In this document: positions 16,875-33,874 of the stretch, piece after piece | Position numbering within the stretch: the stretch's first letter is position 1 | Layout of the letters: the number at the start of each line of letters is the position of its first letter | Source of the DNA: a phage | DNA: 60,053 bases | Strand: one strand, 5' to 3' | Assembly (NCBI GenBank): GCA_012409925.1 | Contig: GCA_012409925.1_4804.1 | The notes under the pieces: model-generated | The model's input: the letters and a program-made list of their open reading frames with translations, nothing else | Told to the model about the DNA's origin: nothing | Database searches by the model: none | Translations under genes and position numbers: made by a program

Positions 16875-16984
16875 CCACCCTCAAATAAGTATTGTGTATT
16901 ATATCTAATGAAAAAAACTTAGGCAAACAATAATTATGGTTTGAATATGTATAACAACCGATATAGCCGCGCCTTAATTAGTGT

Positions 16985-17260
16985 GATACGGATGATACGG
17001 ATAAAATGAGGCGTATTTTTATCCGTATCGGTGTATAAGCCGCGCTATCACTGGTGTGCTACGGATGATACGGATGATACGGATACTTTTCATATATAAG
17101 AGTTTATAAAAAAATAAAATTAAATTAGATATATAATTTTAAATTAATTTATTTGAATTCCTATATAGTACGGCGGCAACGCGTATCATCCGTATCATCC
17201 GTAAGATTCTTTTGAAAACAACAACTTACTTGATACGGATGATACGTCATTATACGTATA
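16985..17260. repeat. iteron cluster A: about 10 copies of GATACGGAT/ATCCGTATC in both orientations flanking a ~70-bp AT-rich block
   Basis: Direct reading: tandem copies at 16985-17002 and 17061-17086; inverse copies at 17021-17029 and 17182-17205; further copies 17232-17250; AT-rich block 17091-17170. Confidence 0.8.
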
Positions 17261-25546: not shown

Positions 25547-27883
25547 ATGCCAAGGCTAATATTCAAAAACAACTTTGAGGTCGCGCTTGCTCAGCCAACG
25601 ACGACTTCAGACACCACAATTACAATCCGCTCAGGGTCGGGCTTTCCGACCTTGGCCGCAAACGAGCGTGTAGTGGCGACAATCGTCGACGCTGCAACAG
25701 GCCTCCAATTCGAAATCATCACAGTAACAGCCGTCGTTGGTGATGTCCTGACCGTTCAGCGTGCACAGGAAGGGACTGCAGCGCGTGCATGGGCTGCTGG
25801 TGACATGCTTTCCATTCGAACAACTGCCGCGACTTTGACGGGTACTGTCCGAAACTTTGGCGTAATTCCTAATGGAGTAAACCTTAACGCGCTGAACGGA
25901 AGCTGGTTCGGGCAGTATTACCAACTGGCTGATTCTGGGGCATCAATATCACTCAACTATCCTGTCGCACAAGCGGGAATACTTGAAGTTTTACAAACGG
26001 GAGTTTCAACGAACGGATGTGTTCAGCGATACACACCTTACAACACTAACACTGTATACCAGAGGCTGTATAATGCCATCACATCAACTTGGCTTGATTG
26101 GGTTCAAGTTTATAATACGCAAAGCGTTATACCAGTCGCAAATGGCGGTACAGGACAAACGACCATCCAAGGGATGAAGTCTGCTTTTGGATTCGGAACG
26201 GTCGCTGATCAAAACATTGTTCCCACTTCAATGGGCGGTACGGGATCAGCAGACAATGCGCAAGCATGGTTGAATATTCGTCCACAAGGTTCAACGCCGC
26301 TCGCTGGTGATCCAGTTAACGATTATGATGCCACGACAAAGCGTTGGGTGGAAAACTTAGTTAACACAGGCACCGTTGGCCCAAGTATGAACGGCGTTAT
26401 GAACTATGGCGTTGGTGATTTCCATCTGCGTGACAGCCGTGCTTATATTCAACCATACGAAGTTGTTGCCGATGGGCAATTGTTAAACCGCGCTGACTGG
26501 CCTGAGCTTTGGGCGTATGCGCAAATGTTGACACCTATTGCCGATGCCGACTGGCTTGCGGACCCGCAAAAGCGCGGCAAGTATTCACTTGGTAACGGCA
26601 CAACAACATTCCGCGTACCGGACCGTAATGGCGTCCAGACAGGTTCTATATATGGTCTTTTCGGTCGAGGCGACGGCGGCACAAGTTCGAACGATGGGTT
26701 GGTATACCCTTCTGGCGCGCCAAATATCACAGGTACACCAGAAGTGACCATGATGTCGGGTTGGGGAACTGGGGGTGCTGTTCGAGGCAGGGGTGCTTTC
26801 ACACCGCAGACCACAACATCGACGCCTATTGGCGGTTCTATCACTGGATCTTATGTAAACATCGATTTTGACGCGTCAAAGTCAAACCCGATATATGGAA
26901 GAACAAGCACAGAGTTACGACCGAATAATTTCATCGGAGTTTGGGTGATTCGTGCATCGGGTGGATTTGTTGCTGCGAATACGACTTGGAGCGTTATTAA
27001 TGGTGACGCAGCAAAACCTGCAACCGGAACGCTTGTCAGAGGCGGTAGTGTAAAATCTGAATATAAGATTGGCACGAACATCGCGTATCAAGCATTCTTG
27101 CAGGCATACGGCAAGATTGATGGATCAACATCAGAATGTGGAGCAATAGTTTCAAATGGTGTACAAGAATGGAAGTTTGCGCAAGACGGTACATTTTATT
27201 TCCCTAACTCCATAAATCAAATTGGCACGGAAAGGTCAGACGGGGCGCTGAATGTTAATGCATATCTCAGACCAAAAGACCTTGTTGCGCAACCGTTGAA
27301 CTCAGTAGGCGTTTCAGCGTATGAAAGCAACGGCATGAGGATGATAAACTTCAACCAGTCAACACCTGGGTATGTATCATATTTTTCAGGGGATTGGTAT
27401 GCTGGCAGTTATACATTCGGAGGCGTTCGAGGCACCGGAACTGATTTGATGCACGCGCAAATATCCATAAACAATGGGCAAGGCGCTGCAGCAGACTTCA
27501 AATTTCTACCTGATGGTACTGCTACTGCAGGGAACTGGGTAAGCACGTCTGATGAAAGGGTAAAAACAAATATTCAAAGGATTTCCGACCCGTTAGGAAA
27601 GATGAGGTTGATCAAGGGTGTGACTTGGGAGCGCCTTGATAAGTCAGAGAAACCGAATGGCATCGGCTTTATAGCTCAAGATGTAGAAGGTGTATTCCCT
27701 GACGCAGTAAGAACTTTGAAATATTCAAACACGGAACTTAAGGATGGCACGGTTGTAGAGAATATCAAGTCAGTCGACACTTACGGAGTGGCAGCGGCAC
27801 TGCACCACGAGGCTATTCTCGCATTGATGGATCAAATAGATGAACTCAAGGCAGAGATAGCCGCGCTGAAAGCAGCGAAATAA
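25547..27883 (+). CDS. tail fibre protein with C-terminal intramolecular chaperone (S74-like) domain
   Basis: 778 aa, Gly/Thr/Asn-rich; C-terminus ...SDERVKTNIQRISDPLGKMRLIKGVTWERLDKSEKPNGIGFIAQDVEGVFPDAV...ALMDQIDELKAEIAALKAAK matches the autoproteolytic chaperone module of tail fibres and endosialidases. Confidence 0.8.
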   Translation: MPRLIFKNNFEVALAQPTTTSDTTITIRSGSGFPTLAANERVVATIVDAATGLQFEIITVTAVVGDVLTVQRAQEGTAARAWAAGDMLSIRTTAATLTGTVRNFGVIPNGVNLNALNGSWFGQYYQLADSGASISLNYPVAQAGILEVLQTGVSTNGCVQRYTPYNTNTVYQRLYNAITSTWLDWVQVYNTQSVIPVANGGTGQTTIQGMKSAFGFGTVADQNIVPTSMGGTGSADNAQAWLNIRPQGSTPLAGDPVNDYDATTKRWVENLVNTGTVGPSMNGVMNYGVGDFHLRDSRAYIQPYEVVADGQLLNRADWPELWAYAQMLTPIADADWLADPQKRGKYSLGNGTTTFRVPDRNGVQTGSIYGLFGRGDGGTSSNDGLVYPSGAPNITGTPEVTMMSGWGTGGAVRGRGAFTPQTTTSTPIGGSITGSYVNIDFDASKSNPIYGRTSTELRPNNFIGVWVIRASGGFVAANTTWSVINGDAAKPATGTLVRGGSVKSEYKIGTNIAYQAFLQAYGKIDGSTSECGAIVSNGVQEWKFAQDGTFYFPNSINQIGTERSDGALNVNAYLRPKDLVAQPLNSVGVSAYESNGMRMINFNQSTPGYVSYFSGDWYAGSYTFGGVRGTGTDLMHAQISINNGQGAAADFKFLPDGTATAGNWVSTSDERVKTNIQRISDPLGKMRLIKGVTWERLDKSEKPNGIGFIAQDVEGVFPDAVRTLKYSNTELKDGTVVENIKSVDTYGVAAALHHEAILALMDQIDELKAEIAALKAAK

Positions 27884-28969: not shown

Positions 28970-29383
28970 ATGTCAAATAAAAATGATTCTATGAGCCATA
29001 CTTACACTAAAGGCAGCGGCACTGCTTTTGGTTCCAGCATCAAACTTGACGCTCCTGGTTTGCACATCCACAACGTTAATGAAAAATCTGATGTAAGCAG
29101 TCGTGATTTGTCTTTGGTTCTTAAAAATCAACTCGCCTTGGAATCACGGTTGGATAATATTGAGAAGTCGCTGGAAAGTTTGCGCGACCAGCTTTATGGG
29201 CCTTGTCCTGTTGCGGATGATTCAAAGACAGTTAATGTAAATTACGGATTGATCGATAATATGCTTGGAGTCACGTCGCGCTCTGCTGTTAAGGCATATA
29301 ATATTGAAAATCTGATTGGGCAGATTGCTGATGGCTTCGGCACATCTTGCCTTACAGGTATTGAAAGCGATTTCAGTGAATAG
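28970..29383 (+). CDS. hypothetical protein, 137 aa
   Basis: ATG 28970 with AAAGG RBS in track ORF 28904..29383; followed by terminator. Confidence 0.45.
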   Translation: MSNKNDSMSHTYTKGSGTAFGSSIKLDAPGLHIHNVNEKSDVSSRDLSLVLKNQLALESRLDNIEKSLESLRDQLYGPCPVADDSKTVNVNYGLIDNMLGVTSRSAVKAYNIENLIGQIADGFGTSCLTGIESDFSE

Positions 29384-29403
29384 TTGGTAGTGTTGATTTA
29401 ACC

Positions 29404-29445
29404 GTGAATCGTGGGTCGTGGGTCGTGGGTCGTGGGTCGTGGGTC
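29404..29445. repeat. perfect heptamer tandem repeat (GTGGGTC)x5 preceded by one degenerate unit GTGAATC
   Basis: Direct reading: units at 29411, 29418, 29425, 29432, 29439. Confidence 0.95.
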
Positions 29446-29467
29446 GCTTAGTGCGGCCCTTTATTTT
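29441..29467 (+). terminator. rho-independent terminator overlapping last repeat unit
   Basis: GGGTCGC-ttagt-GCGGCCC (one mismatch) followed by TTTATTTT. Confidence 0.45.
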
Positions 29468-30062
29468 GCCTGCCGCGCAGGAGTGTACTGCAAATTTCCT
29501 GTGGGTACAAAATAGTACGGTACTGTCTAGGACTTTTTCTTTGAAAGTTAGTGGACCAAATGTGTCGTATTTTGATTAGTGTACCGCAAATTCCATCAAG
29601 TACCAAAACGCACCAAAAGACCCATGCCATAAAAACCACACGAACGCAATAATCAATCGCCGTTACAGTTTCCAGCGTTACAATTCGAAAGCGAATGATT
29701 CGACGCATAATAATATGAAGCATAATGATTCGAAAGCGAACGATTGCGTGTAGGATAATATCGGTGGGGATTATTCTAGATGCATGTAATTTCGCATGCG
29801 TACTATTTTCGGACGAAGGGTCGGCATATTCCTCGTTTTAGTTCGGAACGAAGGGAAAGTTTTGCGCCTTTATAAAACAACGACTTACGCGACCCGCCCT
29901 AACGGTCCGATATAGGTGTCTATATAAAACAAGGACTTACACGATGTTCTCCATTTAACGTAATACCTGTTATGCGAACTAAGGCGCATCTCGACGAAGA
30001 TTATGCGACGACGAAGGGAAGGATAAAGGAGTTTTCGCGGAGAAGCGCATCGAGATAGGGAC

Positions 30063-30088
30063 GAAGAAAAGCCGCGACTAAGCGCGGC
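30063..30088 (-). terminator. rho-independent terminator ending the minus-strand island operon
   Basis: On minus strand GCCGCG-cttagt-CGCGGC followed by TTTTCTTC. Confidence 0.5.
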
Positions 30089-30114
30089 CTATTAGTAACG
30101 GTGGGTAATTATAA

Positions 30115-30324
30115 TTAAAGGAATAATCCGGCGCGTTTAATTTGTCCCAGGACGTTATCGCGCTTACGACGCATAACCGCGTATTTAACCTCTTCTTCGT
30201 ATCCCCAGCCGCCGATGGATAACATCGCGTTCATATTATCGCATAATTCCTTAAGTTCGCGGAACATATCGATGACGGCGGTACGATGGGCGCGCGCATT
30301 AAGAGAGTTATTCATATTATTCAT
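30115..30324 (-). CDS. small protein, 69 aa
   Basis: ORF track; GGAG RBS overlapping stop of upstream gene; TAA stop. Confidence 0.5.
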   Translation of the reverse strand: MNNMNNSLNARAHRTAVIDMFRELKELCDNMNAMLSIGGWGYEEEVKYAVMRRKRDNVLGQIKRAGLFL

Positions 30325-31626: not shown

Positions 31627-32253
31627 ATGGTTAGCTTAAATCGTTTCTCGACTAGCGGCGACGTTATCGCAACTAAGACCGCCGACCTCGTTGCATTTTA
31701 TAATGCAAATTCCGGTTCGAAGCCGATTAAGAAATTTGCGGACCGCCGGACCGCCGAGACTCGCGTAATCGCGTTAATCGAGTCCTTAAACGCGCTCGAT
31801 GAGCCATCCAATGAATCGCCCATTCCCGACGCGAAGCCGCGCGAGGAAGTGTCCAGCGATGTAAAAACGCATAAGGCGCGTGCGGTCGTTAAAAAGGCTG
31901 AGCCGACCCAGGAAGAACTCGACGCGATGAGCGATGAAGAATATGAAGCCTTCGTTAAGAGCGGCTTAAACGATAGTGCAAATTGCGTAGTACAAAATGG
32001 AACTCCTTCCCATCGCCGTTCGAATAGCGAAGGTATTGCAAAAAGTTGGGATAATAAGGAAGTGGCGCAAAAGCGTCTTACCCGTAACGGCGTTATGGTC
32101 GAGGGTGTAGGCGAGTTCAAATCGGTCCGCGCAGCATTCGCCGCGCTGGGCTTACCGGACAGCAAGCATATTCGCTTCCGCATGAAGCTTAAAGAAGCTG
32201 GACGCTTGAACTTCGAGTTCGGCAACAAGTCCTTCACCTTCCAGATTATCTAA
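31627..32253 (+). CDS. hypothetical protein, 208 aa
   Basis: ORF track; AGGAG RBS; composition switches mid-gene from the island dialect to ordinary coding. Confidence 0.5.
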   Translation: MVSLNRFSTSGDVIATKTADLVAFYNANSGSKPIKKFADRRTAETRVIALIESLNALDEPSNESPIPDAKPREEVSSDVKTHKARAVVKKAEPTQEELDAMSDEEYEAFVKSGLNDSANCVVQNGTPSHRRSNSEGIAKSWDNKEVAQKRLTRNGVMVEGVGEFKSVRAAFAALGLPDSKHIRFRMKLKEAGRLNFEFGNKSFTFQII

Positions 32254-32260
32254 TCAAATG

Positions 32261-32285
32261 GCGGCCCTTCGAGGTCGCTTTTCAT
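32261..32285 (+). terminator. terminator-like hairpin
   Basis: GCGGCC-cttcga-GGTCGC (one G-U pair) followed by TTTTCAT. Confidence 0.35.
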
Positions 32286-32303
32286 AGTGCAAATTGGTGG
32301 CTT

Positions 32304-32567
32304 ATGAACACGCTTATTCTCATCGCTACGTTGTCCATCGGAAGTGGTCGCACCTTATCGCTGTACGACCATAGTGCAAATTGCGCTTACCCTACGCGCG
32401 TTGCGGCAATAGTTAATAGTGCAAATCGAATGCTATTCGAGACTTGTTGGCGGGTCGATAACGAGAAAGGGCGCATCATCTTAGGTTATAGTGCGAATCT
32501 GCTGGTGGAGTCGTTCGATTGGACGGTTGAAGGTCGTAAATTGTTACGTAAGGTGACTAAAAGATGA
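32304..32567 (+). CDS. hypothetical protein, 87 aa (carries three in-frame motif copies)
   Basis: ORF track; GGTGG RBS; ATAGTGCAAAT-type motif occurs three times in frame as Ser-Ala-Asn, so coding status is uncertain. Confidence 0.35.
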   Translation: MNTLILIATLSIGSGRTLSLYDHSANCAYPTRVAAIVNSANRMLFETCWRVDNEKGRIILGYSANLLVESFDWTVEGRKLLRKVTKR

Positions 32568-32681
32568 CTTATAATAATACACTTTCTAACGCGTTTATGG
32601 TTGTAACCTTCCCCGTCGTATTACCGATGGCCCTAGAAGTGGAGAAAATGTGTTCTAGGGCCGTTTTATAGTGCAAATTGG

Positions 32682-33155
32682 CTAGTGGCGGGAGAATTGC
32701 TCGCCTTCTTTGGCCGCCTCTCCGAAATCCTTGTAGAAATCGTCCATGGAACGGCCCATTTTACTATTGCCGTTTTCATCAATCATCGTGATGCCGTAGA
32801 TGATGTTCAGTTCACGAATAGCATTAAGCTTGGCTGACGCCGCGACTTCTGGATCACGCACAAGCTTGACCAAATTGTGAATTGCACCTTTTACGCTCCA
32901 CAAATCCTTGAGTGGCATCTCTTCCATACGCTTTTTGAAGCGCATCTTGTAGTATGGATTGCGTTGCGTGCAAAGGATTCGCTGGCCAGTGTAGTTATCC
33001 GTTGCAACTTCCATTCCAAATACTAGTGCAAAAGCTGCGCGCATGTCATGGCCCTGAATAACAAGGTCAATGAACTCATCGAATAAAGCCTGATTGTGCT
33101 CTGCAAATCGCGGGTCTTCAAAGTCTTCAGGCATCGCTACATAATCTTGACTCAT
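32682..33155 (-). CDS. hypothetical protein, 157 aa (small-terminase candidate, speculative)
   Basis: ORF track frame from ATG 33155 (MSQDYVAMPEDFEDPRF...); ordinary codon usage; start codon abuts three tandem motif copies. Confidence 0.4.
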   Translation of the reverse strand: MSQDYVAMPEDFEDPRFAEHNQALFDEFIDLVIQGHDMRAAFALVFGMEVATDNYTGQRILCTQRNPYYKMRFKKRMEEMPLKDLWSVKGAIHNLVKLVRDPEVAASAKLNAIRELNIIYGITMIDENGNSKMGRSMDDFYKDFGEAAKEGEQFSRH

Positions 33156-33280
33156 AGTGCAAAATCCCATAGTGCAAATTAATAGTGTGAATTATACAAT
33201 GGATGGACATTATATTCAAGTGCAGATTGATGTTCATTATGGCTATAAACATACACAAATCATAGTGCTGAATGAATAGC

Positions 33281-33874
33281 GGACCGTGGTGCGTGGTGTA
33301 CTGTTTGATACGTATAAAATAAATCCATCCCTTTTGCCGCTTGTTATGCAAATCAATGACTTAGCCGCTGCTGGCTGGTTGAAGCGTATCATGACGTATC
33401 ATCCGTATTGCCGCAAGTCTTTGTTTTTACTTATATCTTACGGATAATACGTATAAATATAAGTTTAGTATAAGTATGAGGATGTAGAAAAAAAATTAAT
33501 TTAAATGTTTTTAAAATGGAGTTAATTAATTTTTAGAATTATTCTGGTTACAATAAGAAAAAATGGCGTATCATCCGTATCATCCGTATGAGTGTACCAG
33601 TAGAATCCAGGCGCGGCGCACCTTACAGCCATGATACGTCTCAATACGGCCAAAAACCTATCCGTAAGAGTGTACGCATCAACCAAAGAATCCAGGCGCG
33701 GCGCACTCTTCCACACCACACACCACGGTTCAATCTCCAAAATCCACACACTAAAAGTCACAATCACCGTATCATTCTCCAAAAATAAATCCAAATTTCC
33801 ATTTTATTTATTATTTTCATCCACAATATCCTAAATTCCATCCGTATCAACCAAGCCTCAACCCACCACGGTCC
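33281..33874. repeat. iteron cluster B: ATCCGTATC-type repeats, 19-bp direct repeat and AT-rich block, bracketed by 11-bp inverted repeat
   Basis: GCGTATCATCCGTATCATCCGTA at 33567-33589 identical to 17181-17203; further copies at 33385-33410, 33437-33457, 33631-33649, 33659-33668, 33766-33777 and 33841-33851; GAATCCAGGCGCGGCGCAC at 33603 and 33688; GGACCGTGGTG (33281) / CACCACGGTCC (33864). Confidence 0.8.

What the first reader, a model, noticed from the sequence alone, without database searches (positions are those of the whole stretch)
29404..29467. Perfect heptamer tandem repeat (GTGGGTC)x5 fused to a terminator stem
Five perfect 7-bp units (29411-29445) preceded by a degenerate sixth (GTGAATC); the last unit forms the 5' arm of a terminator-like hairpin (GGGTCGC/GCGGCCC + T-run). 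Perfect short tandem repeats are slippage-prone, so copy number could vary between isolates and modulate terminator strength or a protein-binding site at the island boundary.
Basis: seen in the sequence. Interest (0 to 1): 0.4.

Follow-up and report, generated by a model that had tools for sequence, protein, structure and literature searches.

The report
Variable heptamer repeat beside phage terminator
A short 7-base DNA stutter (GTGGGTC x5) sits just ahead of a transcription stop signal in a lytic E. coli phage; its copy number differs between related phages (1 to 6), it looks like an ordinary replication-slippage expansion, and the stop signal stays intact.

Summary
GTGAATC followed by five perfect GTGGGTC units lies at 29404-29445. 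The last unit supplies the 5' arm of a hairpin (29441-29459) followed by TTTATTTT. The window is a Wifcevirus-type lytic E. coli myophage, not an island. The array lies 27 nt after the stop codon of a small late gene and 90-170 bp outside the inner edge of the ~3.7 kb direct terminal repeat.

Among 29 related genomes and contigs:
- 23 carry the two-unit ground state, GTGAATC-GTGGGTC.
- Four carry one extra unit, from three different events.
- Phage Mansfield has six GTGGGTC units and this window has five. The two lie in different flank clades and have different hairpin loops, so the expansions are probably independent.

The hairpin stem and T-run are kept in all 29, while the loop varies. Folding with 1-8 units keeps the terminator hairpin dominant (probability 0.78 or higher).

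Best reading: a slippage-prone microsatellite grown from a two-unit proto-repeat next to a conserved intrinsic terminator, probably near-neutral. At five or more units it also forms the only canonical G-quadruplex motif in the window, an untested minority possibility. Interest is low.

The parts
28970..29383 (+). Small late gene of 137 aa with unknown function. It is the last gene of the + strand cluster downstream of the tail-fibre gene (25547-27883), and its transcript runs into the array and terminator.
   Evidence: ORF list. It gives a weak match to PHROG 6238, function unknown. Homologous CDSs are annotated in relatives. It is divergent from most relatives, at 49-69% identity over 29000-29400.
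29404..29410 (+). Degenerate leading unit GTGAATC. Together with one GTGGGTC it forms the two-unit proto-repeat found in nearly all relatives.
   Evidence: GTGAATC-GTGGGTC is the state in 23 of 29 sequences. The unit reads GTGAATA in Mansfield and ATGAATC in Bas101.
29411..29445 (+). Five perfect tandem GTGGGTC units. This is the lineage-specific expansion, and it is also the only canonical G3N4 G-quadruplex motif in the window.
   Evidence: Sequence read and TRF. Copy-number table. G-quadruplex motif scan and G4Hunter score of 1.29.
29441..29459 (+). Intrinsic-terminator hairpin GGGTCGC-TTAGT-GCGGCCC. Its 5' arm is the last five bases of the final repeat unit plus GC.
   Evidence: Terminator scan and folds. 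Annotated as a terminator in WFC and WFH. The stem is invariant and the loop variable in 29 sequences.
29460..29467 (+). T-run TTTATTTT of the terminator.
   Evidence: It is kept as TTTATTTT, TTTCTTTT or TTTGTTTT in relatives.
29468..29615 (.). Context: a near-invariant non-coding block that runs from the terminator to the inner edge of the direct terminal repeat. The WFC-type edge maps to 29535|29536 and the Mansfield/Ro157lw-type edge to about 29615|29616.
   Evidence: Alignment of 29 sequences, showing only scattered substitutions and 1-, 2- and 5-bp indels. Repeat edges come from the Mansfield annotation and from comparing the ends of the WFC and Ro157lw records.

Best explanation
The array is a microsatellite-type, copy-number-variable expansion in a lytic Wifcevirus phage. 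The ancestral state is an imperfect two-unit direct repeat, GTGAATC-GTGGGTC. It lies directly in front of, and overlaps, the 5' arm of the intrinsic terminator that ends the small late-gene cluster downstream of the tail-fibre gene. That terminator sits 90-170 bp before the inner edge of the direct terminal repeat.

Strand slippage during phage DNA replication, or unequal recombination in concatemers, occasionally adds units. Once several perfect units exist the array grows easily, giving 5 units here and 6 in phage Mansfield. Only the last unit is followed by GC, and the 3' arm plus U-run are unchanged, so the terminator hairpin still forms. The extra units are most likely neutral or nearly neutral passengers.

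Shown here: the array, the terminator anatomy, the polymorphism, the conserved stem, and the retained hairpin in silico. Inferred: slippage as the mechanism, the independence of the two large expansions, and the lack of phenotypic effect.
For: - The array and hairpin are present as described.
- The window is a Wifcevirus, 92-97% identical to the 29 Wifcevirus records over 25 kb (six more distant Serratia/Pantoea phage records match only in patches at ~72%).
- Copy-number table over 29 homologous loci: 23 have the two-unit state. F13/SP13 duplicated GTGAATC. Bas99 has GTGGGTT-GTGGGTC. Metagenome contig OFPW01000008 has an extra GTGTGGT. Mansfield has 6 units and the window 5.
- The window and Mansfield fall in different clades of a tree built on the 560-bp downstream flank. 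Their nearest neighbours have one unit each. They also differ in hairpin loop (TTAGT versus TGCT) and in the leading unit (GTGAATC versus GTGAATA). Bas99 differs from WFC by one unit at 0.7% flank divergence.
- A second small slippage site lies about 25 bp downstream, with +2 bp and +5 bp variants. This shows the region tolerates and generates such changes.
- The stem and T-run are invariant while the loop varies.
- The hairpin remains dominant for 1-8 units.
- No conserved ORF covers the array, because frame-breaking indels occur in the overlapping 53-aa ORF region.
- The heptamer is not a dispersed motif. The other hits lie inside genes without any hairpin context.
- No Rfam family matches.
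- SSR unit gain and loss between closely related phages is documented for T7M, T3, phiYeO3-12 and phiSG-JL2 (PMC4956903).
Against: - Neutrality is inferred, not measured.
- Two lineages reached 5 and 6 units and no 3- or 4-unit allele was seen. Five is exactly the number at which four free G-tracts plus the terminator arm coexist. This could hint at selection, but with only two expanded genomes it carries no statistical weight.
- The array lies next to an unusually conserved block that leads to the terminal-repeat edge, so an effect on packaging or replication cannot be excluded.
- No near-identical sibling genome with a different count was available, so the mutation rate is unknown.
Confidence: 0.75

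Rival explanations
1. Copy number tunes terminator strength, so isolates with different counts let different amounts of late transcription read through towards the terminal repeat.
For: The last unit is part of the stem. Copy number does vary. Without a G-quadruplex term, the predicted stem probability drops slightly, from 1.00 with 1 unit to 0.80-0.85 with 5-8 units.
Against: The predicted effect is small. The hairpin is the minimum-free-energy and centroid structure for every count. The 3' arm and U-run are unchanged, so alternative pairings with earlier units still place a hairpin against the U-run. Of 29 relatives, 27 have one or two GTGGGTC units, so tuning is not a family property.
Confidence: 0.1
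2. The expanded array works as a G-quadruplex element. In the RNA or on the non-template DNA strand, four G3 tracts fold into a quadruplex directly upstream of the terminator hairpin. This could pause RNA polymerase, stabilise the transcript's 3' end, or impede replication or packaging enzymes near the terminal-repeat edge.
For: GGGTCGT x4 or more is a canonical G3N4 motif. It is the only such motif on either strand of the 60-kb window, with a G4Hunter score of 1.29. With ViennaRNA's quadruplex term, arrays of 5 or more units fold as quadruplex plus terminator hairpin, and the MFE falls from -32.8 to -38.2 kcal/mol at 5 units. The G-rich strand is the non-template strand of the upstream genes. 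The two expanded genomes have 5 and 6 units, both at or above that threshold.
Against: The motif is absent from 27 of 29 relatives, so it is not a conserved function. The G4Hunter score is only borderline. Four-nucleotide loops give modest stability. Two genomes cannot show selection. There is no experimental evidence.
Confidence: 0.07
3. The units are iterons for a DNA-binding protein, for example the small terminase subunit or a packaging-end recognition factor, acting at the nearby terminal-repeat boundary. This would be analogous to the arrays of short repeats that flank the T7 terminal repetition (recalled from memory, Dunn and Studier 1983; not checked here).
For: The array lies 90-170 bp outside the inner edge of the terminal repeat. 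It sits next to a near-invariant non-coding block. A second copy of the 14-mer GTGAATAGTGGGTG lies 31 bp upstream in most relatives.
Against: The multi-unit array is not conserved, since 23 of 29 sequences have the two-unit state. The upstream 14-mer copy is degenerate in the window and absent in ECO71P1. The motif is not found at the other repeat edge near 33517. Other occurrences lie inside genes.
Confidence: 0.04
4. The count of five is an assembly artefact, meaning a collapsed or expanded short-read assembly of a repeat.
For: k=31 Logan contigs of SRR6052022, which have flanks identical to the window, end inside the array on both sides. This shows the array confuses short-k assemblers.
Against: Those contig ends each carry four full units, so an array longer than 31 bp exists in the reads. 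The whole array is 42 bp and is easily spanned by single Illumina reads. An independently sequenced phage, Mansfield, has six units.
Confidence: 0.04

Closest known systems
Simple-sequence-repeat (microsatellite/VNTR) polymorphism between closely related phages, as catalogued for T7M, T3, phiYeO3-12 and phiSG-JL2 (PMC4956903)
   Same: Both involve gain and loss of whole repeat units at orthologous positions with conserved flanks. Both are inferred to arise by slippage, occur in intergenic DNA, and have no demonstrated phenotype.
   Different: The unit here is a heptamer and reaches 5-6 perfect copies. The T7-group catalogue covers mono- to hexanucleotide repeats, mostly 1-2 unit changes. Here the array is physically fused to a terminator arm.
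Intrinsic (Rho-independent) terminators of E. coli and its phages
   Same: It has a G+C-rich 7-bp stem, a 4-5 nt loop and a U-run. It lies 58 nt after a co-oriented stop codon. The stem is conserved and the loop is free to vary.
   Different: The 5' arm is the last copy of a tandem repeat, so up to five alternative 5' arms exist in the transcript. Termination was not measured.
Phase-variable contingency loci (SSR-controlled genes of Haemophilus, Neisseria, Campylobacter)
   Same: Both have a perfect short tandem repeat with variable unit number and a unit length that is not a multiple of three.
   Different: The array here lies after the stop codon, not in an ORF or between promoter hexamers. 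No gene is switched on or off by a unit change.
Canonical G-quadruplex motifs (G3+N1-7)x4
   Same: The sequence fits the motif, and the G-rich strand is the non-template strand.
   Different: The motif exists only in the two expanded genomes. The G4Hunter score is borderline at 1.29. Formation is untested.
Short repeat arrays flanking the T7 terminal repetition
   Same: Both are short repeated heptamer-scale motifs located just inside the unique region next to a direct terminal repeat.
   Different: As I recall them, the T7 arrays are interspersed, imperfect and conserved within the phage group. This array is head-to-tail, perfect, and absent from most relatives.

Membership tests
Intrinsic (Rho-independent) terminator | G+C-rich stem-loop immediately followed by a U/T-run on the transcribed strand | tested here: met
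   The stem has 7 pairs (6 G-C, 1 G-U), the loop is 5 nt and the tail is TTTATTTT. It is the minimum-free-energy and centroid hairpin.
Intrinsic (Rho-independent) terminator | Located downstream of a co-oriented gene end | tested here: met
   The stop codon ends at 29383 and the hairpin starts at 29441 on the same strand. The homologous position is annotated as a terminator in WFC and WFH.
Intrinsic (Rho-independent) terminator | Structure conserved in relatives (stem kept, loop free) | tested here: met
   The stem GGGTCGC/GCGGCCC is identical in 29 of 29 sequences. The loop occurs as TTAGT, TTAGG, TTGGT, TGTG, TGCT or TGTTG. No compensatory changes are available because the stem never varies.
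Intrinsic (Rho-independent) terminator | Measured transcript termination | not testable with these tools
   This needs RNA 3'-end mapping or a reporter assay.
Slippage-driven simple sequence repeat (VNTR) | Perfect head-to-tail units | tested here: met
   TRF reports period 7, 5.4 copies and 100% matches.
Slippage-driven simple sequence repeat (VNTR) | Unit-number polymorphism at the orthologous site with conserved flanks | tested here: met
   Counts of 1, 2, 5 and 6 GTGGGTC units, plus a GTGAATC duplication, occur among 29 loci. Downstream flanks are 95% identical or more.
Slippage-driven simple sequence repeat (VNTR) | Recurrent, independent length changes | tested here: inconclusive
   The flank tree and loop haplotypes place the window and Mansfield apart. 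However, phage mosaicism could move a short segment between lineages.
Slippage-driven simple sequence repeat (VNTR) | Length heterogeneity within a population or on passage | not testable with these tools
   No reads are available. Logan contigs only show that the array exceeds k=31.
Phase-variable contingency locus | Repeat lies inside an ORF or between promoter elements, so that unit changes switch a gene | tested here: not met
   The array lies after the stop codon. The overlapping 53-aa ORF is not conserved, as 1-, 2- and 5-bp indels occur in relatives. No promoter-like site spans the array.
G-quadruplex-forming sequence | Four or more G3 tracts with loops of 1-7 nt | tested here: met
   Two overlapping matches lie at 29413 and 29420. 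They are the only ones in the window.
G-quadruplex-forming sequence | Conserved in relatives or demonstrated folding | tested here: not met
   The motif is present in only 2 of 29 sequences. Folding is predicted only by ViennaRNA's quadruplex term.
Terminase/packaging recognition iterons next to a terminal repeat | Repeat array conserved among phages sharing the packaging system | tested here: not met
   Of 29 sequences, 23 have only the two-unit state. The adjacent 29468-29615 block is the conserved part, not the array.

The most novel reading that the evidence does not exclude
Expansion to five or more units is not neutral. It creates a G-quadruplex directly upstream of an intact terminator hairpin, using four free G-tracts plus one in the stem, on the non-template strand and about 100 bp from the terminal-repeat edge. 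On this reading, two Wifcevirus lineages independently selected the structure. Its role could be to strengthen pausing and termination, to protect the late transcript's 3' end, or to block enzymes approaching the packaging end.
Probability: 0.06. Interest if true: 0.5.

Novelty: new member of a known kind. Interest (0 to 1): 0.2.

Why it matters
The value is mostly practical. The array is a natural length marker that distinguishes Wifcevirus isolates, some of which are being studied for biocontrol of O157 and ESBL E. coli. It also breaks short-k assemblies close to the terminal-repeat edge, where genome ends are already hard to resolve. It shows a microsatellite growing from a two-unit proto-repeat without disturbing the adjacent terminator. 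If the minority G-quadruplex reading were true, it would be a rare case of a recently evolved, copy-number-gated nucleic-acid structure in a lytic phage. Nothing here requires that reading.

Tried and rejected
- **Dispersed regulatory motif.** GTGGGTC and GTGAATMGTGGGT were searched across the window. Hits outside the array lie inside genes with no hairpin context, so this was rejected.
- **Coding or phase-variable ORF.** The 53-aa ORF that starts in the array (29418-29579) and the 91-aa antisense ORF are not conserved. Relatives carry 1-, 2- and 5-bp indels there, so this was rejected.
- **Known RNA family.** An Rfam scan of 29200-30200 gave only a chance-level mir-361 hit at E = 0.59.
- **Bidirectional terminator.** On the minus strand no T-run follows the hairpin (read), so this was rejected.
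- **Chi-like site.** The array does not contain GCTGGTGG. True Chi sites lie elsewhere.
- **More relatives.** Scans of IMG/VR, metagenome contigs and GTDB genomes using conserved flank words added only 6 new sequences, plus a 339-bp contaminant-like contig in a Xanthomonas assembly too short to include the array.
- **Near-identical sibling genomes.** Exact-protein look-ups returned only the same sample, SRR6052022, whose contigs break in the array. Short-term mutability therefore could not be assessed.
- **Literature on T7 end-flanking repeats.** The search mostly matched 'PacBio'. That comparison rests on memory only.

Full report
**What is in the sequence.** The window reads ...TTTAACC GTGAATC (GTGGGTC)x5 GC TTAGT GCGGCCC TTTATTTT GCC....
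- The degenerate unit is at 29404-29410.
- The five perfect units are at 29411-29445.
- The hairpin is at 29441-29459 (5' arm GGGTCGC, loop TTAGT, 3' arm GCGGCCC).
- The T-run is at 29460-29467.

Tandem Repeats Finder gives period 7, 5.4 copies, 100% matches and score 76, the highest in the window. The terminator scan lists the stem-loop with 7 pairs, 6 of them G-C. RNA and DNA folds return it as the MFE and centroid hairpin. A perfect 35-bp heptamer array is expected about 1e-12 times by chance in 60 kb (my arithmetic: 60,053/4^28).

**What the window is.** Megablast places the window in the genus Wifcevirus. These are lytic E. coli and Shigella myophages of about 68 kb. The window is 92-97% identical to the 29 Wifcevirus records over 25 kb and is not identical to any of them. 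They have direct terminal repeats of about 3.7 kb (PMC6563267; Mansfield annotation).

I located the repeat edges in window coordinates by comparing record ends.
- WFC carries a 3,784-bp repeat whose inner edge maps to 29535|29536.
- The Ro157lw (3,533 bp) and Mansfield (3,673 bp) edges map to about 29615|29616.
- The physical genome end maps to 33517.

The array therefore lies 90-170 bp outside the inner edge of the terminal repeat. It is not at an island boundary.

Upstream on the + strand are the tail-fibre gene (25547-27883) and four small genes, the last at 28970-29383. A convergent minus-strand terminator at 30090-30069 closes the other side of the roughly 600-bp non-coding region that holds the repeat edge.

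**Comparison with relatives.** I collected the homologous site from 22 GenBank phages, one IMG/VR genome and five metagenome contigs, making 29 sequences with the window.
- 23 sequences carry GTGAATC-GTGGGTC, one unit of each.
- F13 and SP13 carry GTGAATC-GTGAATC-GTGGGTC.
- Bas99 carries GTGAATC-GTGGGTT-GTGGGTC.
- Contig OFPW01000008 carries GTGAATC-GTGTGGT-GTGGGTC.
- Mansfield carries GTGAATA followed by six GTGGGTC units.
- The window carries five GTGGGTC units.

In a neighbour-joining tree of the 560-bp downstream flank, the window groups with Bas101, TH32 and Eco4M-7. Mansfield groups with ECO71P1 and CWP003. All of those neighbours have one unit. The two expanded genomes also differ in hairpin loop (TTAGT versus TGCT) and in the leading unit.

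Bas99 and WFC differ by one unit at only 0.7% flank divergence. This points to about five separate length changes among 29 sequences, including two large expansions that are probably independent. Phage mosaicism prevents certainty on independence.

A second small slippage site, CCGCG(CG)CAGG, lies about 25 bp downstream with +2 and +5 bp variants.

**The terminator.** The stem and T-run are the same in all 29 sequences, while the loop takes six forms of 4-5 nt. WFC and WFH annotate the site as a terminator. The stem never varies, so there is no covariation evidence. The pattern of a conserved stem with a free loop fits a functional hairpin.

**Does copy number change the terminator?** I folded the transcript from 29340 to the T-run with 1-8 units. 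The terminator stem had a base-pair probability of 1.00, 0.99, 0.98, 0.96, 0.85, 0.84, 0.80 and 0.83 for 1 to 8 units. It was part of the MFE structure in every case.

Only the last unit is followed by GC, which gives the full 7-bp stem. Earlier units would pair with a terminal G-U and a larger loop. Because the 3' arm is fixed against the U-run, even those alternatives leave a hairpin in terminator position. Thermodynamics therefore predicts little modulation. Kinetics and real efficiency remain untested.

**The G-quadruplex motif.** (GGGTCGT)n with n of 4 or more is a canonical G3N4 motif. It is the only one on either strand of the window, with a G4Hunter score of 1.29. With ViennaRNA's quadruplex term switched on, arrays of 5 or more units fold as a quadruplex from four upstream G-tracts plus the intact terminator hairpin. 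The MFE falls from -32.8 to -38.2 kcal/mol at 5 units.

Five is the smallest count at which both structures can coexist, and the two expanded genomes have 5 and 6 units. This is the most novel reading the data allow. Against it, the motif is missing from 27 of 29 relatives, the score is borderline, and two genomes cannot show selection.

**Other readings rejected.**
- The heptamer is not a dispersed site. Other matches lie inside genes.
- The 53-aa ORF starting in the array is not conserved. Relatives have 1-, 2- and 5-bp indels in it.
- No Rfam family matches.
- No promoter-like site spans the array.
- A packaging-iteron role is unlikely because the array is not conserved. The conserved element is the adjacent 29468-29615 block.

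**Junction character.** The upstream gene is only 49-69% identical to most relatives over 29000-29400, and 70-87% to ECO71P1. From about 29450 onward identity is 95-100%. The array and terminator thus mark the step from a variable late-gene cassette to the conserved flank of the terminal repeat.

**Assembly note.** Exact-protein look-ups found the same phage in Logan assemblies of SRR6052022, with identical flanks that include a unique 1-nt deletion in TTTGAAAGTT. Both contigs end inside the array. The array therefore exceeds k=31 in the reads and breaks short-k assemblies. The exact count of five rests on the window's own assembly. The whole array is 42 bp and easily spanned by single reads.

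**Verdict.** The functional ideas, tuning of termination and a protein-binding site, are not supported.

The best explanation, at about 0.75 confidence, is a slippage-generated, probably near-neutral microsatellite grown from a two-unit proto-repeat that abuts a conserved intrinsic terminator. SSR unit changes between closely related phages are documented (PMC4956903). This is a new example of a known kind and of low interest, apart from its use as a strain marker, its nuisance value for assembly, and the small chance that the quadruplex matters.

Noticed in passing
window 29468-29615: A non-coding block of about 150 bp between the terminator and the terminal-repeat edge is almost invariant in 29 Wifcevirus sequences. 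It nevertheless carries 1-, 2- and 5-bp indels, so it is constrained but not coding. It contains the direct repeat GTGTACYGCAAATT (29483 and 29579) and many GTAC tetramers. It is a candidate terminase or end-of-packaging recognition region.
   Followed up: partly
window 31700-33179: The motif ATAGTGCAAAT occurs 9 times, all on the + strand, clustered inside the direct terminal repeat. The whole window has 11 hits with one mismatch allowed, against 1.7 expected. It looks like an iteron or phage promoter array.
   Followed up: partly
window 16984-17256 and 33391-33589: Small perfect arrays of the 9-mer CGTATCATC (TACGGATGA on the other strand) occur at two distant places. One of them lies at the physical genome end, near 33517.
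   Followed up: no
window 32501-32508 and four other sites: The Chi sequence GCTGGTGG occurs 5 times against 1.2 expected. One copy lies about 1 kb inside the physical genome end, oriented so that RecBCD entering from that end would recognise it. The orientation statement comes from my own knowledge of Chi polarity.
   Followed up: no
window 29471-29481: A second slippage hot spot, CCGCG(CG)CAGG, sits within a small hairpin, CCTGC-CGC-GCAGG. F13, SP13 and Bas100 carry +2 bp and metagenome contig ERZ1026892 carries +5 bp.
   Followed up: partly
window 29674-29761 and 29868-29944: Two pairs of tandem imperfect repeats lie just inside the terminal repeat: a 43-nt unit AGCGTTACAATTCGAAAGCGAATGATTCGACGCATAATAATAT and a 25-nt unit CTTTATAAAACAACGACTTACGCGA. 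The first pair overlaps sigma-70-like promoter matches at 29685-29714 and 29730-29759.
   Followed up: no
L036 and L037 (Logan SRR6052022 contigs _105 and _196): Both k=31 contigs of the same phage end inside the heptamer array. The 67-kb contig stops 55 bp after the upstream gene.
   Followed up: yes
window 29000-29450: There is a sharp step in similarity to relatives at the array. The upstream gene is 49-69% identical to most relatives, while everything downstream is 95-100% identical. This is a mosaic junction at the terminator.
   Followed up: partly
L032 (Xanthomonas pisi DSM 18956 contig NZ_JPLE01000322.1, 339 bp): A 339-bp contig in a Xanthomonas draft genome carries the conserved Wifcevirus flank word CAAAATAGTACGGTACTGTC. 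This is probably phage contamination of that assembly.
   Followed up: no
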